IMG/VR virus record: IMGVR_UViG_3300044678_002717
Coordinates: 9,600-73,599 of that record
Strand: one strand, 5' to 3'
DNA from: a virus
DNA length: 64,000 bases
Shown here: one piece after another, positions 28,782 through 63,827 of the stretch
Layout: each line of letters starts with the position of its first letter
How positions within the stretch are numbered: the stretch's first letter is position 1
Position numbers and translations under genes: made by a program
The notes under the pieces: model-generated
Seen by the model: the letters and a program-made list of their open reading frames with translations, nothing else
What the model was told of the DNA's origin: nothing
Databases searched by the model: none

Positions 28782-29642
28782 TTAAAATCCACCTTGGCTT
28801 CTTTTTTTACCCATAGGGTCGGTGTATATATCTTTTTCTCTATAAGGTTTATCTGACATAAAAGAAGATTCATTAATAACTGCAAAATTAATAGAAATAT
28901 AATCCATTCCATTTACATTAAAATATTCATCATAACCCCAATTAGAATAATTTTCTTCGGGATGTTCTGTTAATGCATAATTATTTGGATTTGCTGAAAA
29001 AAACTTTTCAATCCTATTTTTTATTTCAGGCACATTTAATCTTCTTAAAAACATAGCAACATTATAAGAATCATTTTTACCACCCCTAGTGTTTAATTTA
29101 TCACTTTTTTCTATTCTACCTAATAAATGAACTTTAAAAAATAAATGTTTCCTACCCTTTGTATTATCAGATGTAGAAGTGTAAATATGTCTAAATTCAG
29201 GACTCACTTCTACTGATTTAACATCAAGACCTTGTAAATAATTTTCCAATCTTTTTGCTAACTCTATATCAGAATCTGTTACATCAATTTCACCTTTAGG
29301 AGAAAACATGCTATAACCTTTTTTTACAATAACTTCTTCTCTAATTATCCTTTTAACTAACCCTCTTAATTGAGATTCTCCAATAGTTGTCGTACCCATT
29401 TTTACTTTATCAGGTTGTAATAACATTGCATGAATAGTTGGTTTATCTGAATTTTTTATATCTCTATTTAAATCCATATTGTTTAATATTTGTACTGCTG
29501 AGAAATTATTTTTTATATTTTGAATTTCTTGTGGGTTAAATCCTTTCTTGGCTAATTCTGTATATTTAATTTCTACATTTTCTCTAATCATTTTTCTAAC
29601 CAATCCTTTCAATTGGGATTCAGTAATTCTTACTTTTTTCAT
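28782..29642 (-). CDS. MKKVRITESQL-leader protein (two leader copies)
   Basis: N-terminal leader plus internal GESQLRGLVKRIIREE; late motif at 29661-29670. Confidence 0.8.
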   Translation of the reverse strand: MKKVRITESQLKGLVRKMIRENVEIKYTELAKKGFNPQEIQNIKNNFSAVQILNNMDLNRDIKNSDKPTIHAMLLQPDKVKMGTTTIGESQLRGLVKRIIREEVIVKKGYSMFSPKGEIDVTDSDIELAKRLENYLQGLDVKSVEVSPEFRHIYTSTSDNTKGRKHLFFKVHLLGRIEKSDKLNTRGGKNDSYNVAMFLRRLNVPEIKNRIEKFFSANPNNYALTEHPEENYSNWGYDEYFNVNGMDYISINFAVINESSFMSDKPYREKDIYTDPMGKKRSQGGF

Positions 29643-30730: not shown

Positions 30731-31444
30731 ATGAAATTTAAAACCATCATATTATCTGATGTTCATTTAGGTTCAAAAGCATCAAGAACAAAAGATGTTT
30801 TAAAATTCTTAGATGAAAATACCTGTGATAGATTAATTCTAAATGGTGATATAATTGATATGTGGGCATTAAAAAGAGGTGGTAAATGGAAAGAATCTCA
30901 TTCAAAATTTATAAAGAAAATATTAAAAATAGCTAAGAAAAAAGAAGTTATTTATCTAATAGGTAATCACGATGATTTCTTACATAAATTCCAACCACTA
31001 CATCTACCTAATATAAAATTATTAAAAGAATATATATTAACTGATTCTAATAATAAAAAACTTTATATCTTTCATGGTGATGTTCTTGATATTTTTATTA
31101 CTAAAATAAAATGGTTAGCTGTAATTGGTTCAATTGGTTATGATATAGCACTATGGCTTAATAGAATGTATAATTGGTATAGAGAAAAAAGAAATCTACC
31201 ATATTACTCAATTTCAAAAGAAATAAAAAATAAAATAAAAAGCGCAGTTAACTTTATTAATGACTTTGAAGACAATGCTATTAATTTAGCTAAATTAAAA
31301 AATTGTGATATAGCAGTATGTGGTCATATTCATCAACCTGATTTAAAAGAAAATTATATGAACTCAGGAGATTGGTGCGAAAACTGCACAGCATTGGTTG
31401 AAACACTAGATGGAAAATGGGAAATATTTCATTTTCATAAATAA
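30731..31444 (+). CDS. UDP-2,3-diacylglucosamine hydrolase / PlcP-like metallophosphoesterase
   Basis: SDVHLG, GDIID, GNHD, HGD, CGHIH, NSGDWCE. Confidence 0.85.
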   Translation: MKFKTIILSDVHLGSKASRTKDVLKFLDENTCDRLILNGDIIDMWALKRGGKWKESHSKFIKKILKIAKKKEVIYLIGNHDDFLHKFQPLHLPNIKLLKEYILTDSNNKKLYIFHGDVLDIFITKIKWLAVIGSIGYDIALWLNRMYNWYREKRNLPYYSISKEIKNKIKSAVNFINDFEDNAINLAKLKNCDIAVCGHIHQPDLKENYMNSGDWCENCTALVETLDGKWEIFHFHK

Positions 31445-31504: not shown

Positions 31505-31939
31505 TTAGAAGTTAAACCCTTTTCTAAGTTGTCTTGAGTACCTTCTGTCTGTTGTTAAATATTTCCACAATTCTTCATTACTCATTCCCATAATAGGACT
31601 AGATGCACCACTCATTCTAGCATTTGTCCTTTGGTACTCATTTCGTCCTTTATTAGCAAGCCAAGAATTAATAATTTGTTTACCATCTTTACTTAATTGA
31701 TAAAGTTCACCATCTTGTGCAAAATCACTATCATTAATATCGGTTGAATAAGTCCAATAATCAGGGCTATACACAGAATCATCATCTTCATCTGAATAAT
31801 AAGCATCAGTTCTACCTATATATGCTCTTTCAGTATCACTAAAATAATCTTCATTTATTAAGTTTTTTTTAGTTTCTTCTTTAATCATTTTTCTAATCAA
31901 TCCTTTCAATTGGGATTCTGTAATTCTTACTTTTCTCAT
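31505..31939 (-). CDS. MRKVRITESQL-leader protein
   Basis: Start corrected to the ATG at 31939; late motif at 31958-31968. Confidence 0.8.
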   Translation of the reverse strand: MRKVRITESQLKGLIRKMIKEETKKNLINEDYFSDTERAYIGRTDAYYSDEDDDSVYSPDYWTYSTDINDSDFAQDGELYQLSKDGKQIINSWLANKGRNEYQRTNARMSGASSPIMGMSNEELWKYLTTDRRYSRQLRKGFNF

Positions 31940-31983
31940 ATAAATATTTATTTTTATATAAATAGTTATCATATATTTGCTTT

Positions 31984-32667
31984 ATGAAAATTTTTGCAAT
32001 CTCAGATACTCATGGAAGGCATGAGCAAGTTCAAATACCTGAAGGTACTGATATGCTTATTCATGCAGGTGATTTTTCAAATACAAAACTTCCTGCAATG
32101 AACCATAATGAAGTTAATTTATTTTTAATTTGGTTAGAAAAACAACCTGTTAAATATAAAGTCATTATTGCAGGTAATCATGATACTTCTATTGAAAGTA
32201 GATTCATTACTAAAAAAGATTTTAAAAATAGAGGTATTATTTATCTTGAACATGAATCAATTGAGATTGAAGGAATTAAAATATTTGGCTCTCCATATAC
32301 TCCTGAATTTCATAATTGGGCATTTAACCGTACAAGGGCTAAACTTGGAAAAATTTGGGATTCAATACCTGATGATACTGACATCTTAATTACTCACGGA
32401 CCTCCTAAAAGTATTTTAGATTCTGTTGAAAGAGGTAGAAACAATCATGAACATGTAGGTTGTTCCGCTTTACTTAAAAAAGTATTAAAAGTAAAACCAA
32501 AATACATGATATTTGGTCATATTCATGACAATGGTGATAATTTAAACAATGGTATGTTTAAATTTAATGAATATAGAACAATCTTTGCGAATGTATCTTG
32601 CGTTAGAGATGGTAATAACTTACCATTTGTACACAATGGATATAGTTTTGATTATCCTCCTGCTTGA
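31984..32667 (+). CDS. Calcineurin-like metallophosphoesterase (MPPED-type)
   Basis: SDTH, HAGD, AGNHD, THGPP, FGHIH. Confidence 0.9.
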   Translation: MKIFAISDTHGRHEQVQIPEGTDMLIHAGDFSNTKLPAMNHNEVNLFLIWLEKQPVKYKVIIAGNHDTSIESRFITKKDFKNRGIIYLEHESIEIEGIKIFGSPYTPEFHNWAFNRTRAKLGKIWDSIPDDTDILITHGPPKSILDSVERGRNNHEHVGCSALLKKVLKVKPKYMIFGHIHDNGDNLNNGMFKFNEYRTIFANVSCVRDGNNLPFVHNGYSFDYPPA

Positions 32668-33668
32668 GTTTGAATATTTCTAAAACCTAAAGCGACATTT
32701 CTACCAGCAGTAGCAGTATTATTTTCTTCAACACTTGTTTTACTTGTTATAAAATTTATTATAGCAGTTAAATCATTTGCAGTTTTAATATTTTTTAGTT
32801 TAGTAATTAAAGGTGTATTTCCATTAGGTCCATTAATAATAGTTATAACACTTTGAGCAGCAGGAGAAACTTTTGGTTGTTGAGTTTGTTGTTGCCCTGT
32901 TTGAGGTTGTTGTCCTGTTTCAGACTCAAATCCACTAGTACCAACAGGTGTACTTCTAATTGGTTGTTCCATTAACATTTTACGAACCATTGCCCTTAAT
33001 TGAGATTCTGTAATTAAAACTTTTTTCATCTTTTTTTTATTGTAAATAGTTGCTTTATTAAAATGTTCACTAATATTTTTACTCATATTAAATTTTTTCA
33101 CTTTATTAAGTGAAGCTAATATTTCTTCTTTATATGGTAAAACTAAAACATTATATACAAAAGCAATACTACCAACTATTTTTAATAATAATGATATATA
33201 ATCCGCAATATCTGTAAAAGAACTTGAAATAGTATTAATCATTCCATCGGCAACTAATTTATTTAACCATTCTGTTAATTTTGGTGTATTAGAATATATA
33301 CTAAGTATAAAATTAAAAATACATGCAACTGCTGATAATTTTAAAAGATTTTTAATATTAGCACTATTATTTATTTTACTTATAAAATTATCAATAAATT
33401 TTCCAAAACCTATAGTTTGTAATGTTGCCTTAACAGTTTGTGAAATACGTTTAATATTCGCTATTAATAAATCTAAATATTTGGTTAATAAAAAATTATT
33501 CTCTGCTTTTAATAACATATTAAAAAAAGAAACCAATTCCTTAATATTAAATATTTTATCAAAAAAACTAATATTATCTTCCTCATTTAATTGATTTAAT
33601 TCCAATCTTGATAATAATACATTGCTACTTTCAATAAATAATTTTCTATGTTGTAACTCAGTTAACAT
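32652..33668 (-). CDS. Late protein with a nested in-frame gene starting at 33029 (MKKVLITESQL)
   Basis: ACTATTTACAATAAAAAAA precedes ATG 33668 and ATG 33029; the track's extension to 33824 overlaps tRNA-Leu. Confidence 0.65.
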   Translation of the reverse strand: MLTELQHRKLFIESSNVLLSRLELNQLNEEDNISFFDKIFNIKELVSFFNMLLKAENNFLLTKYLDLLIANIKRISQTVKATLQTIGFGKFIDNFISKINNSANIKNLLKLSAVACIFNFILSIYSNTPKLTEWLNKLVADGMINTISSSFTDIADYISLLLKIVGSIAFVYNVLVLPYKEEILASLNKVKKFNMSKNISEHFNKATIYNKKKMKKVLITESQLRAMVRKMLMEQPIRSTPVGTSGFESETGQQPQTGQQQTQQPKVSPAAQSVITIINGPNGNTPLITKLKNIKTANDLTAIINFITSKTSVEENNTATAGRNVALGFRNIQTQAGG

Positions 33669-33730
33669 TTTTTTATTGTAAATAGTAAATTTTAAAAAAA
33701 AGTCATATATTTGAATTGTCAAAACAATAT

Positions 33731-33814
33731 GTCGGGATGTTGGAATTGGTAGACAAGATGGACTTAAAATCCATTGGCAGCAATGCCGTGAGGGTTCGAT
33801 TCCCTCTCCTGATA
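33731..33814 (+). tRNA. trnL: tRNA-Leu(TAA)
   Basis: Acceptor GTCGGGA/TCCTGAT, ATGGA-CTTAAAA-TCCAT, long variable arm, GAGGG-TTCGATT-CCCTC; TATATTTG upstream; no encoded CCA. Confidence 0.93.
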
Positions 33815-33847
33815 CATAACTCATTGATTATCAATGATTTAAGATAT

Positions 33848-33945
33848 GGCCTTGTAAGTAAATGGATATACTGATTGCCTTCTCATTCCATTCTGAGGAA
33901 TGGAGAGAGAAGCAATTCTTCTAGGTTCGATTCCTAGCGAGGCTA
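33848..33945 (+). tRNA. trnR: tRNA-Arg(TCT) with a 26-nt insertion in the anticodon loop
   Basis: GGCCTTG/CGAGGCT, D arm AGTA-AATGGATA-TACT (A20), ATTGC/GCAAT, CTAGG-TTCGATT-CCTAG; loop is 33 nt. Confidence 0.8.
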
Positions 33946-33967
33946 CTATTTAAGATAAATATATAAT

Positions 33968-34465
33968 ATGAATTTATCAAAGAATCTTACACTTTTTGAA
34001 ATGACAAGAAGTGAAACAGCAAAAAGAAAAGGAGTTAGCAATGAACCAACTCCACAACACATTGAAAATATGAAAGTGTTGGCTGAAAAAATATTTGAAC
34101 CAATTAGAAGACATTTTAATTCACCAATCTATATATCATCAGGATATAGAAGTGCTGCTTTAAATAAAATAATTCCCGGTGCATCCAAAACTTCTCAACA
34201 TTCTAAAGGAGAAGCGATGGACATTGATATGGATAATAGTGGTTCTAAAGTTACCAACAAAGAAATTTTTAATTGGATTAAAGATAATTTAGACTTTGAC
34301 CAATTAATAGCTGAATTTAAACAAGGAAATGATTTAGGTTGGGTACATGTATCATATAATACAAATGGTACTCAAAGAGGACAAATACTAATTGCTTCTA
34401 AAGGAACATTTGGAACAAAGTATTCGCCATACACAAAAGAATTATTTCAAAAAATTTATGGATAA
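33968..34465 (+). CDS. Peptidase M15A (cell-wall peptidase, endolysin candidate)
   Basis: SSGYRS..LN, SQHSKGEAMD, WVHVSY; late motif at 33945. Confidence 0.88.
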   Translation: MNLSKNLTLFEMTRSETAKRKGVSNEPTPQHIENMKVLAEKIFEPIRRHFNSPIYISSGYRSAALNKIIPGASKTSQHSKGEAMDIDMDNSGSKVTNKEIFNWIKDNLDFDQLIAEFKQGNDLGWVHVSYNTNGTQRGQILIASKGTFGTKYSPYTKELFQKIYG

Positions 34466-35096
34466 TATATGTTTCCTATATTGCTTGTTTGATAAAAAAG
34501 ATTGTAGAATAAGATATATTGGTGTATCCGTGCAACCTGAACAAAGATTTAAAAATCATCAATATGAAAGTAAAAATCCTTCTACAAGTAATTTGGGAAA
34601 ATCTAAATGGTTAAAAACTGTAAAAGAACTTTCTTACAAAATTTTATTTTCAGGAACTGAAAAAGAATGTTATCAGAAAGAAATTGAATTAATTTTTAAA
34701 TATAAAAAGAAAAAAAATCTTGTAAATAGTACGGTTGGAGGTGATAAACCACCTAAATTAAATGAATTAGACCCAATACATTATAATAAGACAATTTCTA
34801 AAATTTCAGAAAAAGCAAAAAATAGAAAAGTTTCTGATATAACTAAACAAAAAATGTCTGAGACTCATAAAAAAATTCCTCCTATTTGGTTAGAATCAAA
34901 AGGTTGTAAAAACGGAAGAGCCTATTCTGTAAATCAATATGATTTAAATGGTAATTTTGTCAAAAAATGGGATTGTGCTAAAGATGCAATCAATGAATTA
35001 AAATTAAATAAAACCGCAATTACTGATTGTTTAAAAGGAAGACAAAAAACAGCAGGAGGTTTTATATGGAAAAAATATACCCCTTACAAAGCTTAA
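34458..35096 (+). CDS. GIY-YIG homing endonuclease with NUMOD3/NUMOD1-type DNA-binding repeats
   Basis: FLY..IRYIG..RFKNH..E..N; TKQKMSETH; VNQYDLNG...TAGGFIW; start corrected. Confidence 0.85.
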   Translation: MDNICFLYCLFDKKDCRIRYIGVSVQPEQRFKNHQYESKNPSTSNLGKSKWLKTVKELSYKILFSGTEKECYQKEIELIFKYKKKKNLVNSTVGGDKPPKLNELDPIHYNKTISKISEKAKNRKVSDITKQKMSETHKKIPPIWLESKGCKNGRAYSVNQYDLNGNFVKKWDCAKDAINELKLNKTAITDCLKGRQKTAGGFIWKKYTPYKA

Positions 35097-36728: not shown

Positions 36729-37547
36729 ATGAAAGAAGCATACCAATATCATCAGACAGTAAACAAACTAAGAACATTTTTCCAAAAGAAAAACTTCATT
36801 GAAGTACCAACACAATCTTGCTTATCAATCTTAGCAGCTTGTGAAAACCCTCACTCAATAACACAATTTGAATATGTCAATCAAATTTGGCCTCTTCCAC
36901 AGACAGGGCAAATGATTTTGGAGGAAAGATTATTAACTAACCCAACTTGGGAAGGTTGTTTTTGTGTGTCAACATCTTATAGACAAGAAAAAAATCCAAT
37001 CAAAGGTAGACATGAACTTATCTTCCCAATGTTTGAATTTGAATCTAAAGGTACAATGAAAGATATGCTTCAATTAGAAGCTGAACTTTTAGAACATCTT
37101 GGATTTGATAAACCAATCGAAGTAAATTATGATGATGTTTGTCAAGAATATGGTGGTGTTGAAATTCTTGAAAACGAACATGAAACAAGAATGTGGGAAG
37201 AAAAAGGTCCTGTGGTATCTTTACAAAACTTTCCATTAAGAACTAATCCATTTTGGAATATGCAACATAATGATAACGGAATCTTTAATAAAGTTGATGT
37301 TATCCTTTATGGTCAAGAAACAATCGGTTCTGCTGAAAGAAGTTCTGATGTAGAAAAAATGAGAGAAATGTTTTATACCATTGAAAATGGAGCATACTCA
37401 CAAAAATTATTTGAACTCTTTGGAAAAGAAAGGGTAGAAAAAGAATTGGAAGATTTCTTCTCTCATGATTTCTTTGAAAGATTTGGTGGAGGAATAGGTA
37501 TGACTAGAATGGCTAGAGCATTAAAACTAAATGGTTCTATCATTTAA
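36729..37547 (+). CDS. Class II aminoacyl-tRNA synthetase catalytic-domain paralog (Asn/Asp/Lys type; asparagine-synthetase-like)
   Basis: FIEVPT, LPQTGQ, SYRQE..RH..FPMFEFE, ETIGSAER, GGGIGMTR; no anticodon-binding domain. Confidence 0.8.
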   Translation: MKEAYQYHQTVNKLRTFFQKKNFIEVPTQSCLSILAACENPHSITQFEYVNQIWPLPQTGQMILEERLLTNPTWEGCFCVSTSYRQEKNPIKGRHELIFPMFEFESKGTMKDMLQLEAELLEHLGFDKPIEVNYDDVCQEYGGVEILENEHETRMWEEKGPVVSLQNFPLRTNPFWNMQHNDNGIFNKVDVILYGQETIGSAERSSDVEKMREMFYTIENGAYSQKLFELFGKERVEKELEDFFSHDFFERFGGGIGMTRMARALKLNGSII

Positions 37548-63537: not shown

Positions 63538-63753
63538 AATACAAATATACGATTTTTTTTAGAAAAACAGAAAAATTCCAAATAAAATAAAAAATAAATT
63601 TACAAAAATTGCTGTAAACAATATAGGTTTAAAATTTTTCATTTCTTCAGGAAGTTTTGATAGTTGTCCAAGCAAATTTGCGCTTGACAAAATCATATAA
63701 ATAATAATTAATGAATTGAAAATTATTTGTGCCATAGTAATAAATAAATTTAG

Positions 63754-63827
63754 TGTTCCCTACAGGGTTTGAACCTGTGACCTACTGATTATGAGTCAGT
63801 TGCTCTAACCAACTGAGCTAAGAGAAC
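63754..63827 (-). tRNA. tRNA with CAT anticodon (elongator Met or Ile2)
   Basis: GTTCTCT/AGGGAAC, GCTC-AGTTGGTTA-GAGC, ACTGA-CTCATAA-TCAGT, ACAGG-TTCAAAC-CCTGT; no encoded CCA. Confidence 0.92.

What the first reader, a model, noticed from the sequence alone, without database searches (positions are those of the whole stretch)
33848..33945. tRNA-Arg(UCU) whose anticodon is masked by a 26-nt hairpin insertion
Seen: all arms are intact, including the A20 Arg identity base, but the anticodon loop reads CTTCT-[cattccattctgaggaatggagagag]-AA. The insert folds as TCCATTC/GAATGGA, and TTCTC pairs with GAGAA, which buries the UCU anticodon. It is far too small for a group I intron, restores a canonical loop best if removed at 36/37 rather than 37/38, and shows no clear bulge-helix-bulge. 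Inference: a protein-spliced or nuclease-activated 'locked' tRNA (AGA is the dominant Arg codon here), an anticodon-nuclease-proof decoy, or a pseudogene.
Basis: partly seen in the sequence, partly recalled or inferred. Interest (0 to 1): 0.7.

Follow-up and report, generated by a model that had tools for sequence, protein, structure and literature searches.

The report
Hairpin mini-intron in phage arginine tRNA
A lake-water giant phage carries an arginine tRNA gene interrupted right after its anticodon by a 26-base hairpin that is conserved letter for letter across related phages, and its shape suggests a cut-and-rejoin way of splicing tRNA that has not been shown for bacteria or their viruses.

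Summary
Window 33848-33945 (+) is a real tRNA-Arg(UCU) gene (Rfam 46.3 bits) with a 26-nt insert at 33884-33909. An insert-free homologue with identical exons fixes the junction at 36/37.

The insert is not an assembly artefact. It occurs in 10 contigs and in contigs of three further lake-water runs. It sits in three different tRNA-Arg bodies whose exons differ at 26-29 of 74 columns, yet it is identical apart from one G-to-A allele. Neutral sites in flanking genes differ by 29-44%. A decaying pseudogene is therefore unlikely.

The insert extends the anticodon stem into a helix of about 19 layers. The two junctions lie 2 bp apart and would leave 2-nt 3' overhangs on both products, which is the RNase III signature.

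My best reading (0.4) is a mobile mini-intron cut out by an RNase III-type enzyme and resealed by a 5'-P/3'-OH RNA ligase. No RNA data and no ligase gene were found, but the phage records held are only 12-52% complete.

The closest published case is the 'enigmatic' tRNA introns of Lak megaphages. This scan earlier noted a 21-nt hairpin insert in tRNAs of another huge phage, on other DNA.

The parts
33731..33815 (+). tRNA-Leu(UAA), first gene of the small tRNA cluster. It is preceded by an upstream motif conserved in 9 of 10 aligned loci.
   Evidence: ARAGORN; Rfam 53.8 bits; alignment A1
33848..33945 (+). tRNA-Arg(UCU) gene including the insert (98 nt)
   Evidence: Rfam RF00005 46.3 bits, model positions 1-71; fold z = -4.34
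33848..33883 (+). 5' exon, tRNA positions 1-36. The anticodon TCT is at 33881-33883.
   Evidence: Sequence; junction fixed by the insert-free homologue L035
33884..33909 (+). 26-nt intervening hairpin CATTCCATTCTGAGGAATGGAGAGAG. Upper stem 33886-33893 / 33898-33905; loop TGAG 33894-33897; A.A mismatch 33885/33906. The only variant seen is G to A at 33902 (insert position 19).
   Evidence: It is identical in 7 of 10 contigs and carries the single G19A change in the other 3.
33880..33911 (+). Lower helix TTCTC (33880-33884) paired with GAGAA (33907-33911). It buries the anticodon and holds both junctions 2 bp apart, which would give 2-nt 3' overhangs.
   Evidence: MFE and suboptimal folds; consensus fold. 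The stagger is read from these pairs.
33910..33945 (+). 3' exon, tRNA positions 37-73. No CCA is encoded.
   Evidence: Sequence; Rfam alignment
34392..35096 (+). Free-standing GIY-YIG homing-endonuclease gene about 450 nt downstream. It is a possible DNA-level partner of the insert and is context only.
   Evidence: Pfam GIY-YIG, NUMOD1 and I-HmuI_NUMOD-like; PHROG 314. A 67%-identical homologue lies about 1 kb from the tRNAs in G002. It is absent from G001 (insert present) and from G003 (no insert).

Best explanation
This is a working tRNA-Arg(UCU) gene of a T4-like jumbo phage from lakes. It decodes AGA, the phage's dominant arginine codon.

The gene carries a 26-nt intervening hairpin exactly between positions 36 and 37. 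The hairpin is a young or strongly constrained element that has spread within one phage lineage.

In the precursor the insert turns the anticodon stem into one irregular helix of about 19 layers, roughly two turns, with the anticodon paired to the 3' end of the insert.

I propose that a double-strand-specific RNase III-type enzyme, probably the host's, cuts both strands at the two junctions. This would release a 26-nt hairpin made of 10 stem layers, a tetraloop and a 2-nt 3' overhang. It would leave tRNA halves with 3'-OH on U36 and 5'-phosphate on A37.

An ATP-dependent RNA ligase of the T4 Rnl1/Rnl2 kind could seal these ends directly, giving the canonical loop CUUCUAA.

Shown: the gene, the insert, its exact site, its fold, its conservation, its presence/absence polymorphism and its restriction to this phage group.

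Inferred: that it is removed from the RNA, and by which enzymes.
For: (1) It is a real tRNA with Arg features.

(2) L035 (no insert) and L061 (insert) have identical 74-nt exons and the same downstream flank, so gain or loss is exact at 36/37.

(3) The insert is present in 10 contigs and in contigs of 3 further runs with 0 differences.

(4) The exons of body types W and D differ at 26-29 of 74 columns while the insert differs at 0 of 26. Fourfold-degenerate sites of flanking genes differ by 0.29-0.44. If the insert were neutral, 0 of 26 changes would have a probability of at most about 1.4e-4.

(5) The exons covary: 6 of 31 predicted pairs show compensatory double changes, all of them in exon stems.

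(6) AGA is 78% of Arg codons. No second tRNA-Arg was found in the three insert-bearing virus records.

(7) In the fold the pairs are U34:A37, C35:G(i26), U36:A(i25) and C(i1):G(i24). Cuts at the two junctions would therefore leave 2-nt 3' overhangs on both products.

(8) RNase III products have 2-nt 3' overhangs with 3'-OH and 5'-P ends. The ideal substrate is 22 bp, with a recognition box about 11 bp from the cut (Nicholson 2014, PMC3867540, passages read). RNase III already excises intervening stems from 23S rRNA (PMC8708148, passage read).

(9) Jumbo phages commonly encode Rnl1, Rnl2 or RtcB ligases (PMC7824862, passages read).

(10) Insert-free tRNA-Arg genes with the same anticodon arms are common in other phages: 27 of 28 loci for the W arm and all 80 listed of at least 120 for the D arm. 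The insert therefore goes with the phage lineage and not with the tRNA lineage.
Against: There is no RNA evidence at all: none of the 24 listed runs is on record as RNA.

No RNase III, Rnl1, Rnl2, RtcB, EndA or AAA_33-type kinase (the polynucleotide-kinase-like family searched) was found in the four virus records held. Nor was any found among 84 window and genome ORFs scanned against Pfam. These records are only 12-52% complete, and the Rnl1 control rang nowhere.

The 2-nt stagger is a single observation from one insert family, and perhaps one hairpin insert in five to seven would show it by chance.

Letter-perfect conservation is more than a shape-reading enzyme would demand. The only variant (G19A) weakens the stem (-20.7 to -14.1 kcal/mol) and is not compensated, so the insert shows no covariation.

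On the tRNA side of the cut only about 7 bp plus a bulge remain, which is short for RNase III.

A second odd tRNA in relative G001 has 18 extra loop nt and no comparable helix (z = -1.7).
Confidence: 0.4

Rival explanations
1. The insert is spliced, but by another protein pathway. A sequence-specific or metal-independent endoribonuclease encoded by the phage lineage cuts at the junctions, leaving 2',3'-cyclic phosphate and 5'-OH. RtcB, or a kinase/phosphatase plus ligase set, then rejoins the halves.
For: Perfect sequence conservation of the insert across diverged tRNA bodies fits an enzyme that reads sequence better than one that reads shape. The insert is confined to one phage lineage, while the same tRNA types without it are common elsewhere, which suggests a factor supplied by that lineage. 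About half of the estimated genome is unseen (CheckV completeness 22-52%).
Against: No candidate nuclease, RtcB, kinase or EndA was found in the held records. The neighbouring metallophosphoesterase is an MPPED2-type cyclic-nucleotide phosphodiesterase homologue and not a known RNA end-healing enzyme. This reading does not explain the exact 2-nt stagger.
Confidence: 0.2
2. The insert is not removed from the RNA. It is selfish DNA. For example, it could break the recognition site of a tRNA-gene-targeting homing endonuclease such as the nearby GIY-YIG enzyme, and so be carried along by homing while the tRNA is dead or dispensable.
For: A free-standing GIY-YIG gene lies 0.45-1 kb downstream in 2 of 3 insert-bearing virus records and is absent from the one insert-free record. 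The tRNA region is a recombination mosaic, with Leu types A/B, a spacer present or absent, Arg types W/D and reassorting flanks. T4 SegB is a GIY-YIG enzyme that cuts tRNA genes and drives inheritance of the tRNA region (PMC2330249, abstract read). All insert-bearing alleles share the 13 bp TGCCTTCT|AAGCA around the site.
Against: G001 has the insert but no GIY-YIG homologue. The W-type exons are unchanged or differ at 1 of 74 columns between phages with 29-44% neutral divergence, which a dead gene would not show. This is the only tRNA for the codon that makes up 78% of Arg codons. Immunity at the DNA level and splicing at the RNA level are not mutually exclusive.
Confidence: 0.2
3. The unspliced RNA is itself the product. 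It would be a locked tRNA or a decoy that presents or hides an Arg anticodon loop towards a host anticodon nuclease or another tRNA-binding factor.
For: An alternative register of the insert (CAUUCC/GGAAUG) would display a 7-nt loop AUUCUGA with the same UCU triplet (my reading of the sequence). Nucleases that cut tRNA-Arg anticodon loops exist: colicin D, seen only as an entry in the reference list of PMC7824862. The anticodon is fully paired in the predicted fold.
Against: The alternative register does not appear among the six lowest-energy suboptimal structures printed. The G19A allele would break its closing pair. A decoy does not need intact acceptor, D and T arms that keep covarying. The phage would still lack a decoder for its main Arg codon.
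Confidence: 0.12
4. The insert is an assembly or sequencing artefact, or a private mutation of one assembly.
For: None was found.
Against: The insert is in 10 contigs from viral and metagenome collections. Independent contigs of 3 further runs span it with 0 differences and no indel or joint.
Confidence: 0.01

Closest known systems
'Enigmatic' tRNA introns of Lak megaphages (Devoto et al. 2019, PMC6784885; passages, and part 5 of supplementary file 3, read)
   Same: They are inserts in the anticodon loop of phage tRNA genes. They are identical in sequence across cohorts and present or absent between related phages. The excision point was set by alignment with insert-free genes, and the splicing mechanism is unknown.
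   Different: The 15 entries marked 'Possible intron' span 23-141 nt. The Lak ones are 79-141 nt, and several contain a tRNA-like T arm. The hosts are gut Prevotella. By eye there is no sequence likeness to this 26-nt hairpin. The passages and the supplement part that I read do not describe junction geometry.
RNase III-excised intervening sequences (IVS) of bacterial 23S rRNA (PMC8708148, passage read)
   Same: An extra stem is inserted into a stable RNA gene and cut out of the transcript by a double-strand-specific nuclease. The junction stagger predicted here fits that enzyme's products (PMC3867540).
   Different: IVS are 100-200 nt, and the rRNA pieces are not rejoined. A tRNA cut in its anticodon loop must be religated to decode. 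No tRNA example turned up in my literature search: one search gave 3 papers, none describing one.
Bulge-helix-bulge introns of archaeal and eukaryotic tRNAs
   Same: A short intron in the anticodon loop that pairs with the anticodon and is removed by cutting and ligation.
   Different: The canonical site is 37/38, but here it is 36/37. There are no two 3-nt bulges around a 4-bp helix; instead a 2-bp central segment lies within a continuous helix. No EndA-family gene is in the held records, and bacteria lack that enzyme (recalled knowledge).
Group I introns in bacterial and phage tRNA genes, with homing or 'collaborative homing' by free-standing endonucleases (PMC3984707, passages; PMC2988022 and PMC2790892, search listing only; T4 SegB, PMC2330249, abstract)
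   Same: The site is in the anticodon loop. The pattern is presence or absence among relatives. A free-standing GIY-YIG gene is nearby in a T4-like phage. The 5' exon ends in U and the insert ends in G.
   Different: Twenty-six nt cannot hold a ribozyme core. Rfam found no intron family in the window.
Phage T4 tRNA repair (anticodon nuclease PrrC, then Pnkp and Rnl1; recalled knowledge, with RNA ligases of jumbo phages in PMC7824862)
   Same: It seals a break in a tRNA anticodon loop with 3'-OH and 5'-P ends, which is the rejoining step proposed here.
   Different: There it answers a host attack, and the ends need healing first. Here it would be a constitutive maturation step. No ligase gene has been found yet.

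Membership tests
tRNA (Rfam RF00005), arginine acceptor | Cloverleaf that matches the covariance model above the gathering score | tested here: met
   46.3 bits against 29, model positions 1-71
tRNA (Rfam RF00005), arginine acceptor | Arg anticodon and A20 (identity elements as recalled for E. coli ArgRS) | tested here: met
   The loop is CUUCU...AA, and the insert-free homologue L035 is called tRNA-Arg(tct) by ARAGORN. A20 is read from the D loops of the W and D types.
Bulge-helix-bulge (EndA-spliced) tRNA intron | Two 3-nt bulges separated by a 4-bp helix, with the cuts inside the bulges | tested here: not met
   MFE and suboptimal folds show a continuous helix with a 1-nt bulge (C32) and an A.A mismatch. 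My hand attempt to force a BHB at 36/37 gave at most 2 standard pairs of 4.
Bulge-helix-bulge (EndA-spliced) tRNA intron | Splicing endonuclease of the EndA family available | tested here: not met
   PF01974 matched 0 of 4 virus records, while the control rang in 4 archaea only. The records are fragments, and the host is unknown.
Group I self-splicing intron | Catalytic core (P3-P9), at least about 200 nt | tested here: not met
   The insert is 26 nt. The Rfam scan of the window at gathering scores gave only 3 tRNA hits.
RNase III-processed intervening stem | Irregular double helix of about two turns around the cut sites | tested here: met
   The layers are 5 bp, a bulge, 5 bp, a mismatch and 8 bp, about 19 in all, with arm energy -20.7 to -23.0 kcal/mol. 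This compares with the 22-bp ideal substrate (PMC3867540).
RNase III-processed intervening stem | Cuts on both strands offset so as to leave 2-nt 3' overhangs | tested here: met
   The junctions U36|C(i1) and G(i26)|A37 are 2 bp apart in the predicted helix. This is in silico only and assumes that the junctions are the cut sites.
RNase III-processed intervening stem | Cleavage depends on RNase III | not testable with these tools
   No RNA data. No RNase III gene in the phage fragments. The host enzyme is presumed.
Lak-type phage tRNA introns | Insert in a phage tRNA anticodon loop, conserved in sequence, present or absent among relatives | tested here: met
   compared with the paper's text.
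Lak-type phage tRNA introns | Shared intron sequence or architecture (79-141 nt, T-arm-like element) | tested here: not met
   The supplementary sequences read are 79-141 nt and unlike this insert by eye.
Dispersed palindromic repeat (REP/MITE-like) | Many copies at different kinds of sites in a genome | tested here: not met
   There is 1 copy in the window at up to 3 mismatches. All true hits in the collections lie in tRNA-Arg: 2 of 3 loci and 7 of 10, the remainder being chance matches in GC-rich DNA. There were 0 hits in 185,579 species genomes.

The most novel reading that the evidence does not exclude
This would be a previously undescribed tRNA splicing pathway in bacteria and their viruses. 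Host RNase III excises a 26-nt hairpin from the anticodon loop, and an Rnl-type ligase rejoins the 3'-OH and 5'-P halves without end healing. The mini-intron is a mobile element that moves between unrelated tRNA-Arg genes of co-infecting lake jumbo phages, possibly helped by a free-standing GIY-YIG endonuclease.
Probability: 0.3. Interest if true: 0.9.

Novelty: new variant of a known kind. Interest (0 to 1): 0.7.

Why it matters
Bacteria and phages are textbook cases of tRNA genes without protein-spliced introns. The only accepted bacterial tRNA introns are self-splicing group I ribozymes.

Short, ribozyme-free inserts in phage tRNAs have been reported once as 'enigmatic', in Lak phages, and nobody has given a mechanism.

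This case is small and clean enough to test. It has one 26-nt hairpin, an exact junction, an insert-free twin allele and a concrete enzymatic prediction: RNase III cuts at two named bonds and a 5'-P ligase seals them.

If the prediction holds, it adds a third way of splicing tRNA. It would also mean that default bacterial tRNA finders overlook such genes: ARAGORN missed this one by default and misnamed it Leu in intron mode. It could further point to a way for a phage to couple supply of its main arginine decoder to processing enzymes.

If the insert is not spliced, it is a tidy example of a selfish insert fixed in a gene that the phage seems to need.

Tried and rejected
RNA evidence: no RNA holder is listed among the 24 runs, so expression and splicing could not be examined.

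Enzyme hunt: Pfam on 21 + 63 ORFs, PHROGs on 28 and NCBIfam on 17 gave no RNA ligase, RNase III, EndA or polynucleotide kinase. Family searches of G000-G003 for PF14622, PF09414, PF09511, PF01139, PF01974 and PF13671 all gave 0 of 4. The records are fragments, and the PF09511 control rang nowhere, so this does not show absence.

Alternative genetic code for the ORF-poor half of the window: there was no gain from reading TAG or TGA through.

Covariation in the insert: impossible, because there are only two alleles.

More diverged copies: the tolerant patterns and the neighbour-based scans returned only the same insert.

Bacterial genomes: 0 hits.

ARAGORN intron mode on all held loci: apart from this family, the G001 third tRNA and the odd G008 tRNAs, the calls that I folded (L010, both L021 calls and L004) were type II tRNAs misread as introns (L010, L021) or an implausible 138-nt call (L004). 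The remaining 'Ser'/'SeC' calls of 85-92 nt I took to be the same kind of misreading without folding them.

ARAGORN's own call for this gene, 'tRNA-Leu(tag) i(35,26)', is rejected. The insert-free homologue shows that the loop is CUUCUAA.

G008's odd tRNAs and the third tRNA of G001 did not give a second clean hairpin on which to test the 2-nt stagger rule.

Literature: searches found no description of a hairpin intron of this kind, nor of RNase III-mediated tRNA splicing. Papers outside the held library were not searched.

Earlier-findings look-ups by sequence and by 'RNase III overhang' returned nothing.

Metallophosphoesterase as an RNA end-healing enzyme: rejected as support, because its closest solved relative is MPPED2.

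Full report
WHAT IS THERE

The window is 64 kb of a single 73.6-kb virus record. CheckV rates the record 22% complete, which implies a genome of roughly 330 kb. GC content is 25-35%.

The genes are those of a distant T4-like myovirus:
- a major head protein, a portal and a large terminase;
- an S77 prohead protease and a family B DNA polymerase.

The best terminase match among cultured phages is only 29.6% identical, to a Flavobacterium phage.

Rfam finds three tRNAs in the window: Leu(UAA) at 33731-33815, Met(CAU) at 63753-63827, and the flagged one at 33848-33945 (46.3 bits, full model). The last has 29 unaligned nt in the anticodon loop. ARAGORN with default settings does not see it.

From the sequence:
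- the 5' exon is 33848-33883, ending in the anticodon TCT;
- the insert is 33884-33909 (CATTCCATTCTGAGGAATGGAGAGAG);
- the 3' exon is 33910-33945.

THE FOLD

The RNA fold (-37.9 kcal/mol, z = -4.34, 0 of 200 shuffles as stable) continues the anticodon stem through these elements:
- a bulged C32;
- five pairs, UUCUC/GAGAA;
- an A.A mismatch;
- eight pairs, UUCCAUUC/GAAUGGAG;
- a UGAG loop.

The arm alone folds at -20.7 to -23.0 kcal/mol, against -4.3 for the insert-free arm.

THE EXACT SITE

Locus L035 lies in a 129-kb viral contig with the same gene order. It has tRNA-Leu followed by a normal 74-nt tRNA-Arg(UCU). Locus L061 has exactly the same exons and downstream flank, plus the 26 nt.

The insertion point is therefore CCTTCT|AAGCA, between positions 36 and 37. 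The letters at the junctions do not allow it to slide.

ARAGORN in intron mode reports 'tRNA-Leu(tag) i(35,26)'. That boundary is wrong, given L035.

IT IS REAL AND WIDESPREAD

The insert-bearing gene occurs in 10 contigs:
- the window itself;
- L024 (170 kb) and L029 (39 kb) from viral contigs;
- 7 of the 10 hits of a tolerant metagenome pattern. The other 3 hits are chance matches in GC-rich DNA.

L052 and L057 share flanks and may be one population.

Contigs of X2 (33787-33946), X3 (33787-34275) and X4 (33787-34176) cover the whole gene with 0 differences. There is no indel or joint at the insert. A loose end in X1 independently showed the insert joined to the L035-type 3' half.

ONE INSERT, THREE tRNA BODIES

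The insert sits in three tRNA-Arg bodies:
- type W: the window, L024, L052, L053, L054, L056, L057 and L060;
- type D: L061;
- type D': L029.

W and D/D' exons differ at 26-29 of 74 alignment columns. D and D' differ at 7. The insert differs at 0 of 26.

The only insert variant is G to A at insert position 19 (window 33902), found in L052, L056 and L057. It turns C6:G19 into a C.A mismatch and lowers arm stability to -14.1 kcal/mol.

Among the 5 distinct insert-bearing sequences, 6 of 31 predicted pairs show compensatory double changes, all of them in exon stems. The 13 insert pairs never vary except for that one.

Fourfold-degenerate sites in the two flanking genes differ by 0.29-0.44 between the window and L024, L029 or L038. 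A neutral 26-mer would stay unchanged with a probability of at most about 1.4e-4. The 72-nt W exons, which are identical in the window and L024, would do so far less often.

So the gene is not decaying. The insert either is under strong constraint or has spread recently.

THE INSERT GOES WITH THE PHAGE LINEAGE

Insert-free tRNA-Arg genes with the same anticodon arms are common in other viral contigs. For the W arm, 27 of 28 loci lack the insert.

The insert was found only in the syntenic group with this gene order: metallophosphoesterase, a variable ORF, tRNA-Leu, tRNA-Arg, sometimes a third tRNA, then endolysin. Within the group the region is a mosaic. tRNA-Leu types A and B, a 32-nt spacer, Arg types W and D, and the downstream flanks all reassort.

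In the one scan that did not select for the insert (the tRNA-Leu pattern, plus the window), 3 of 4 loci carry it. The insert occurs once in the window. It is absent from 185,579 species genomes. It is therefore not a dispersed repeat.

HOW IT MOST LIKELY WORKS

AGA is 346 of 446 Arg codons, and no other tRNA-Arg is in the insert-bearing records. The phage's other tRNAs, Leu-UAA here and Ile-UAU in G002, also read its favoured A-ending codons. The gene should therefore be needed as a decoder. A 33-nt anticodon loop with a paired anticodon cannot decode, so I infer removal at the RNA level.

Twenty-six nt cannot be a ribozyme of any known class (no Rfam family matched). There is also no bulge-helix-bulge.

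What the structure does show is this. U34 pairs with A37, C35 with the last insert base, U36 with the second-last, and the first insert base with G24. The two junctions are therefore offset by exactly 2 bp across a continuous helix. Cutting there leaves 2-nt 3' overhangs on the tRNA and on the released hairpin (10 stem layers + 4-nt loop + 2-nt tail = 26 nt).

That is the hallmark of RNase III. Its products have 3'-OH and 5'-phosphate ends, and its ideal substrate is two helical turns with a recognition box about 11 bp from the cut (PMC3867540, passages). RNase III is known to excise intervening stems from 23S rRNA (PMC8708148, passage).

The resulting ends would be direct substrates for an Rnl1/Rnl2-type ligase. 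Such ligases are frequent in jumbo phages (PMC7824862, passages), and T4 uses one to seal anticodon-loop breaks (recalled).

I put this specific pathway at 0.4, and 'removed by some cut-and-rejoin route' at about 0.6.

WHAT SPEAKS AGAINST IT

There is no RNA evidence. No ligase or nuclease gene was found. The four records together cover perhaps half of the genome, and one control (Rnl1) failed.

The stagger is one datum from one insert family. Letter-perfect conservation is more than a shape-reading enzyme needs, and the one variant is not compensated.

A second unusual tRNA in G001 has 18 extra loop nt and no comparable helix. It sits where G002 has a normal tRNA-Ile(UAU).

DNA-LEVEL BEHAVIOUR

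The exact presence/absence pair (L035 and L061) shows recent precise gain or loss. The identical insert in unrelated bodies points the same way.

A free-standing GIY-YIG homing-endonuclease gene lies between the endolysin and thioredoxin genes in the window (34392-35096). A 67%-identical copy is in G002. G001 (insert present) and G003 (no insert) have none.

T4 SegB, a GIY-YIG enzyme in the T4 tRNA cluster, cuts tRNA genes and drives inheritance of that region (PMC2330249, abstract). Free-standing endonucleases that target intron insertion sites are known as 'collaborative homing' (search listing only).

The insert may thus also act as immunity against such an enzyme. That is compatible with splicing and is untested.

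COMPARISON WITH WHAT IS KNOWN

The nearest published case is the set of tRNA introns of Lak megaphages. They are called enigmatic, are identical across cohorts, are present or absent among relatives, and were delimited by alignment (PMC6784885). They are 79-141 nt, partly tRNA-like and unlike this insert. I did not read parts 1-3 and 6-8 of that supplement.

This scan earlier noted 21-nt hairpin inserts in tRNAs of another huge phage (e1-6086262). I could not see those sequences, so that note is a lead and not support.

My literature searches found no description of RNase III-mediated tRNA splicing, nor of this insert.

VERDICT

I class the finding as a new variant of a known but unexplained kind, phage tRNA introns. 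It carries a concrete, testable mechanism that would be categorically new if it holds.

Noticed in passing
L047:1500-1591 (-), which is G001:C1:48184-48274: A third tRNA lies downstream of tRNA-Arg in relative G001 (51.4 bits). Its anticodon loop has 25 nt (CUCAAAAAAACUUUAGAAAAGAGGC), 18 more than normal, and only weak structure (z = -1.7). The same position in G002 holds a normal 73-nt tRNA-Ile(UAU). The anticodon and the insertion point could not be settled.
   Followed up: partly
L053:300-500 (+): In this close relative of the window, the 5' half of tRNA-Leu(UAA) is replaced by unrelated sequence right up to the anticodon loop. The 3' half and the insert-bearing tRNA-Arg are intact. This looks like a recombination or insertion breakpoint inside an anticodon loop.
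   Followed up: no
L063:66-294 (-) and L065:38-129 (-), in record G008 (58-kb phage fragment with 26 tRNA hits): This record holds several oddly expanded tRNAs. One has about 38 extra nt forming two hairpins in the D loop and a 6-nt anticodon loop. One has about 40 extra nt in the anticodon arm. One has about 18 extra nt, and ARAGORN calls it tRNA-Stop(tta). Inserts in phage tRNA genes seem commoner than default tRNA finders suggest.
   Followed up: partly
window 31984-32667 (+): A metallophosphoesterase is conserved (84-94% aa) just upstream of the tRNA cluster in all relatives. Its closest solved relative is MPPED2, a cyclic-nucleotide phosphodiesterase (E 4e-36). A role against cyclic-nucleotide defence signalling is possible. 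A second metallophosphoesterase lies at 30731-31444.
   Followed up: partly
window 36729-37547 (+): A 272-aa protein consists of a class II aminoacyl-tRNA-synthetase catalytic core only. Pfam tRNA-synt_2 gives E 8e-12, PHROG 29758 gives E 1e-91, and there are weak matches to AsnRS, EpmA and AsnA. Its function in a phage is unknown.
   Followed up: partly
window 33660-33730 (+) and alignment A1, columns about 50-110: The motif AAAAAAAAGTCATATATTTGAATTGTGAAAACAATATG directly upstream of tRNA-Leu is conserved in 9 of 10 aligned loci. It is probably the promoter of the tRNA cluster. The sigma-70 consensus scan found nothing above the shuffled background there.
   Followed up: partly
window 32652-33824 (-): The 390-aa ORF as listed runs across tRNA-Leu, so its true start must lie further in. 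The protein has low-complexity, Q-rich stretches, is poorly conserved (40% to the L038 relative) and matches no family.
   Followed up: no
window 28782-29642 (-) and 31505-31972 (-), with several places in L024, L029 and L038: The first 20-40 residues or so of these ORFs recur at the start of several neighbouring ORFs in the relatives (tblastn). This suggests a shared N-terminal module in a small paralogous gene set.
   Followed up: no
window 40000-64000: This half of the window has almost no ORF over 150 aa and mostly small minus-strand ORFs without family matches. Reading TAG or TGA through does not open frames. It is probably an early-gene region and does not reflect a different genetic code.
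   Followed up: partly
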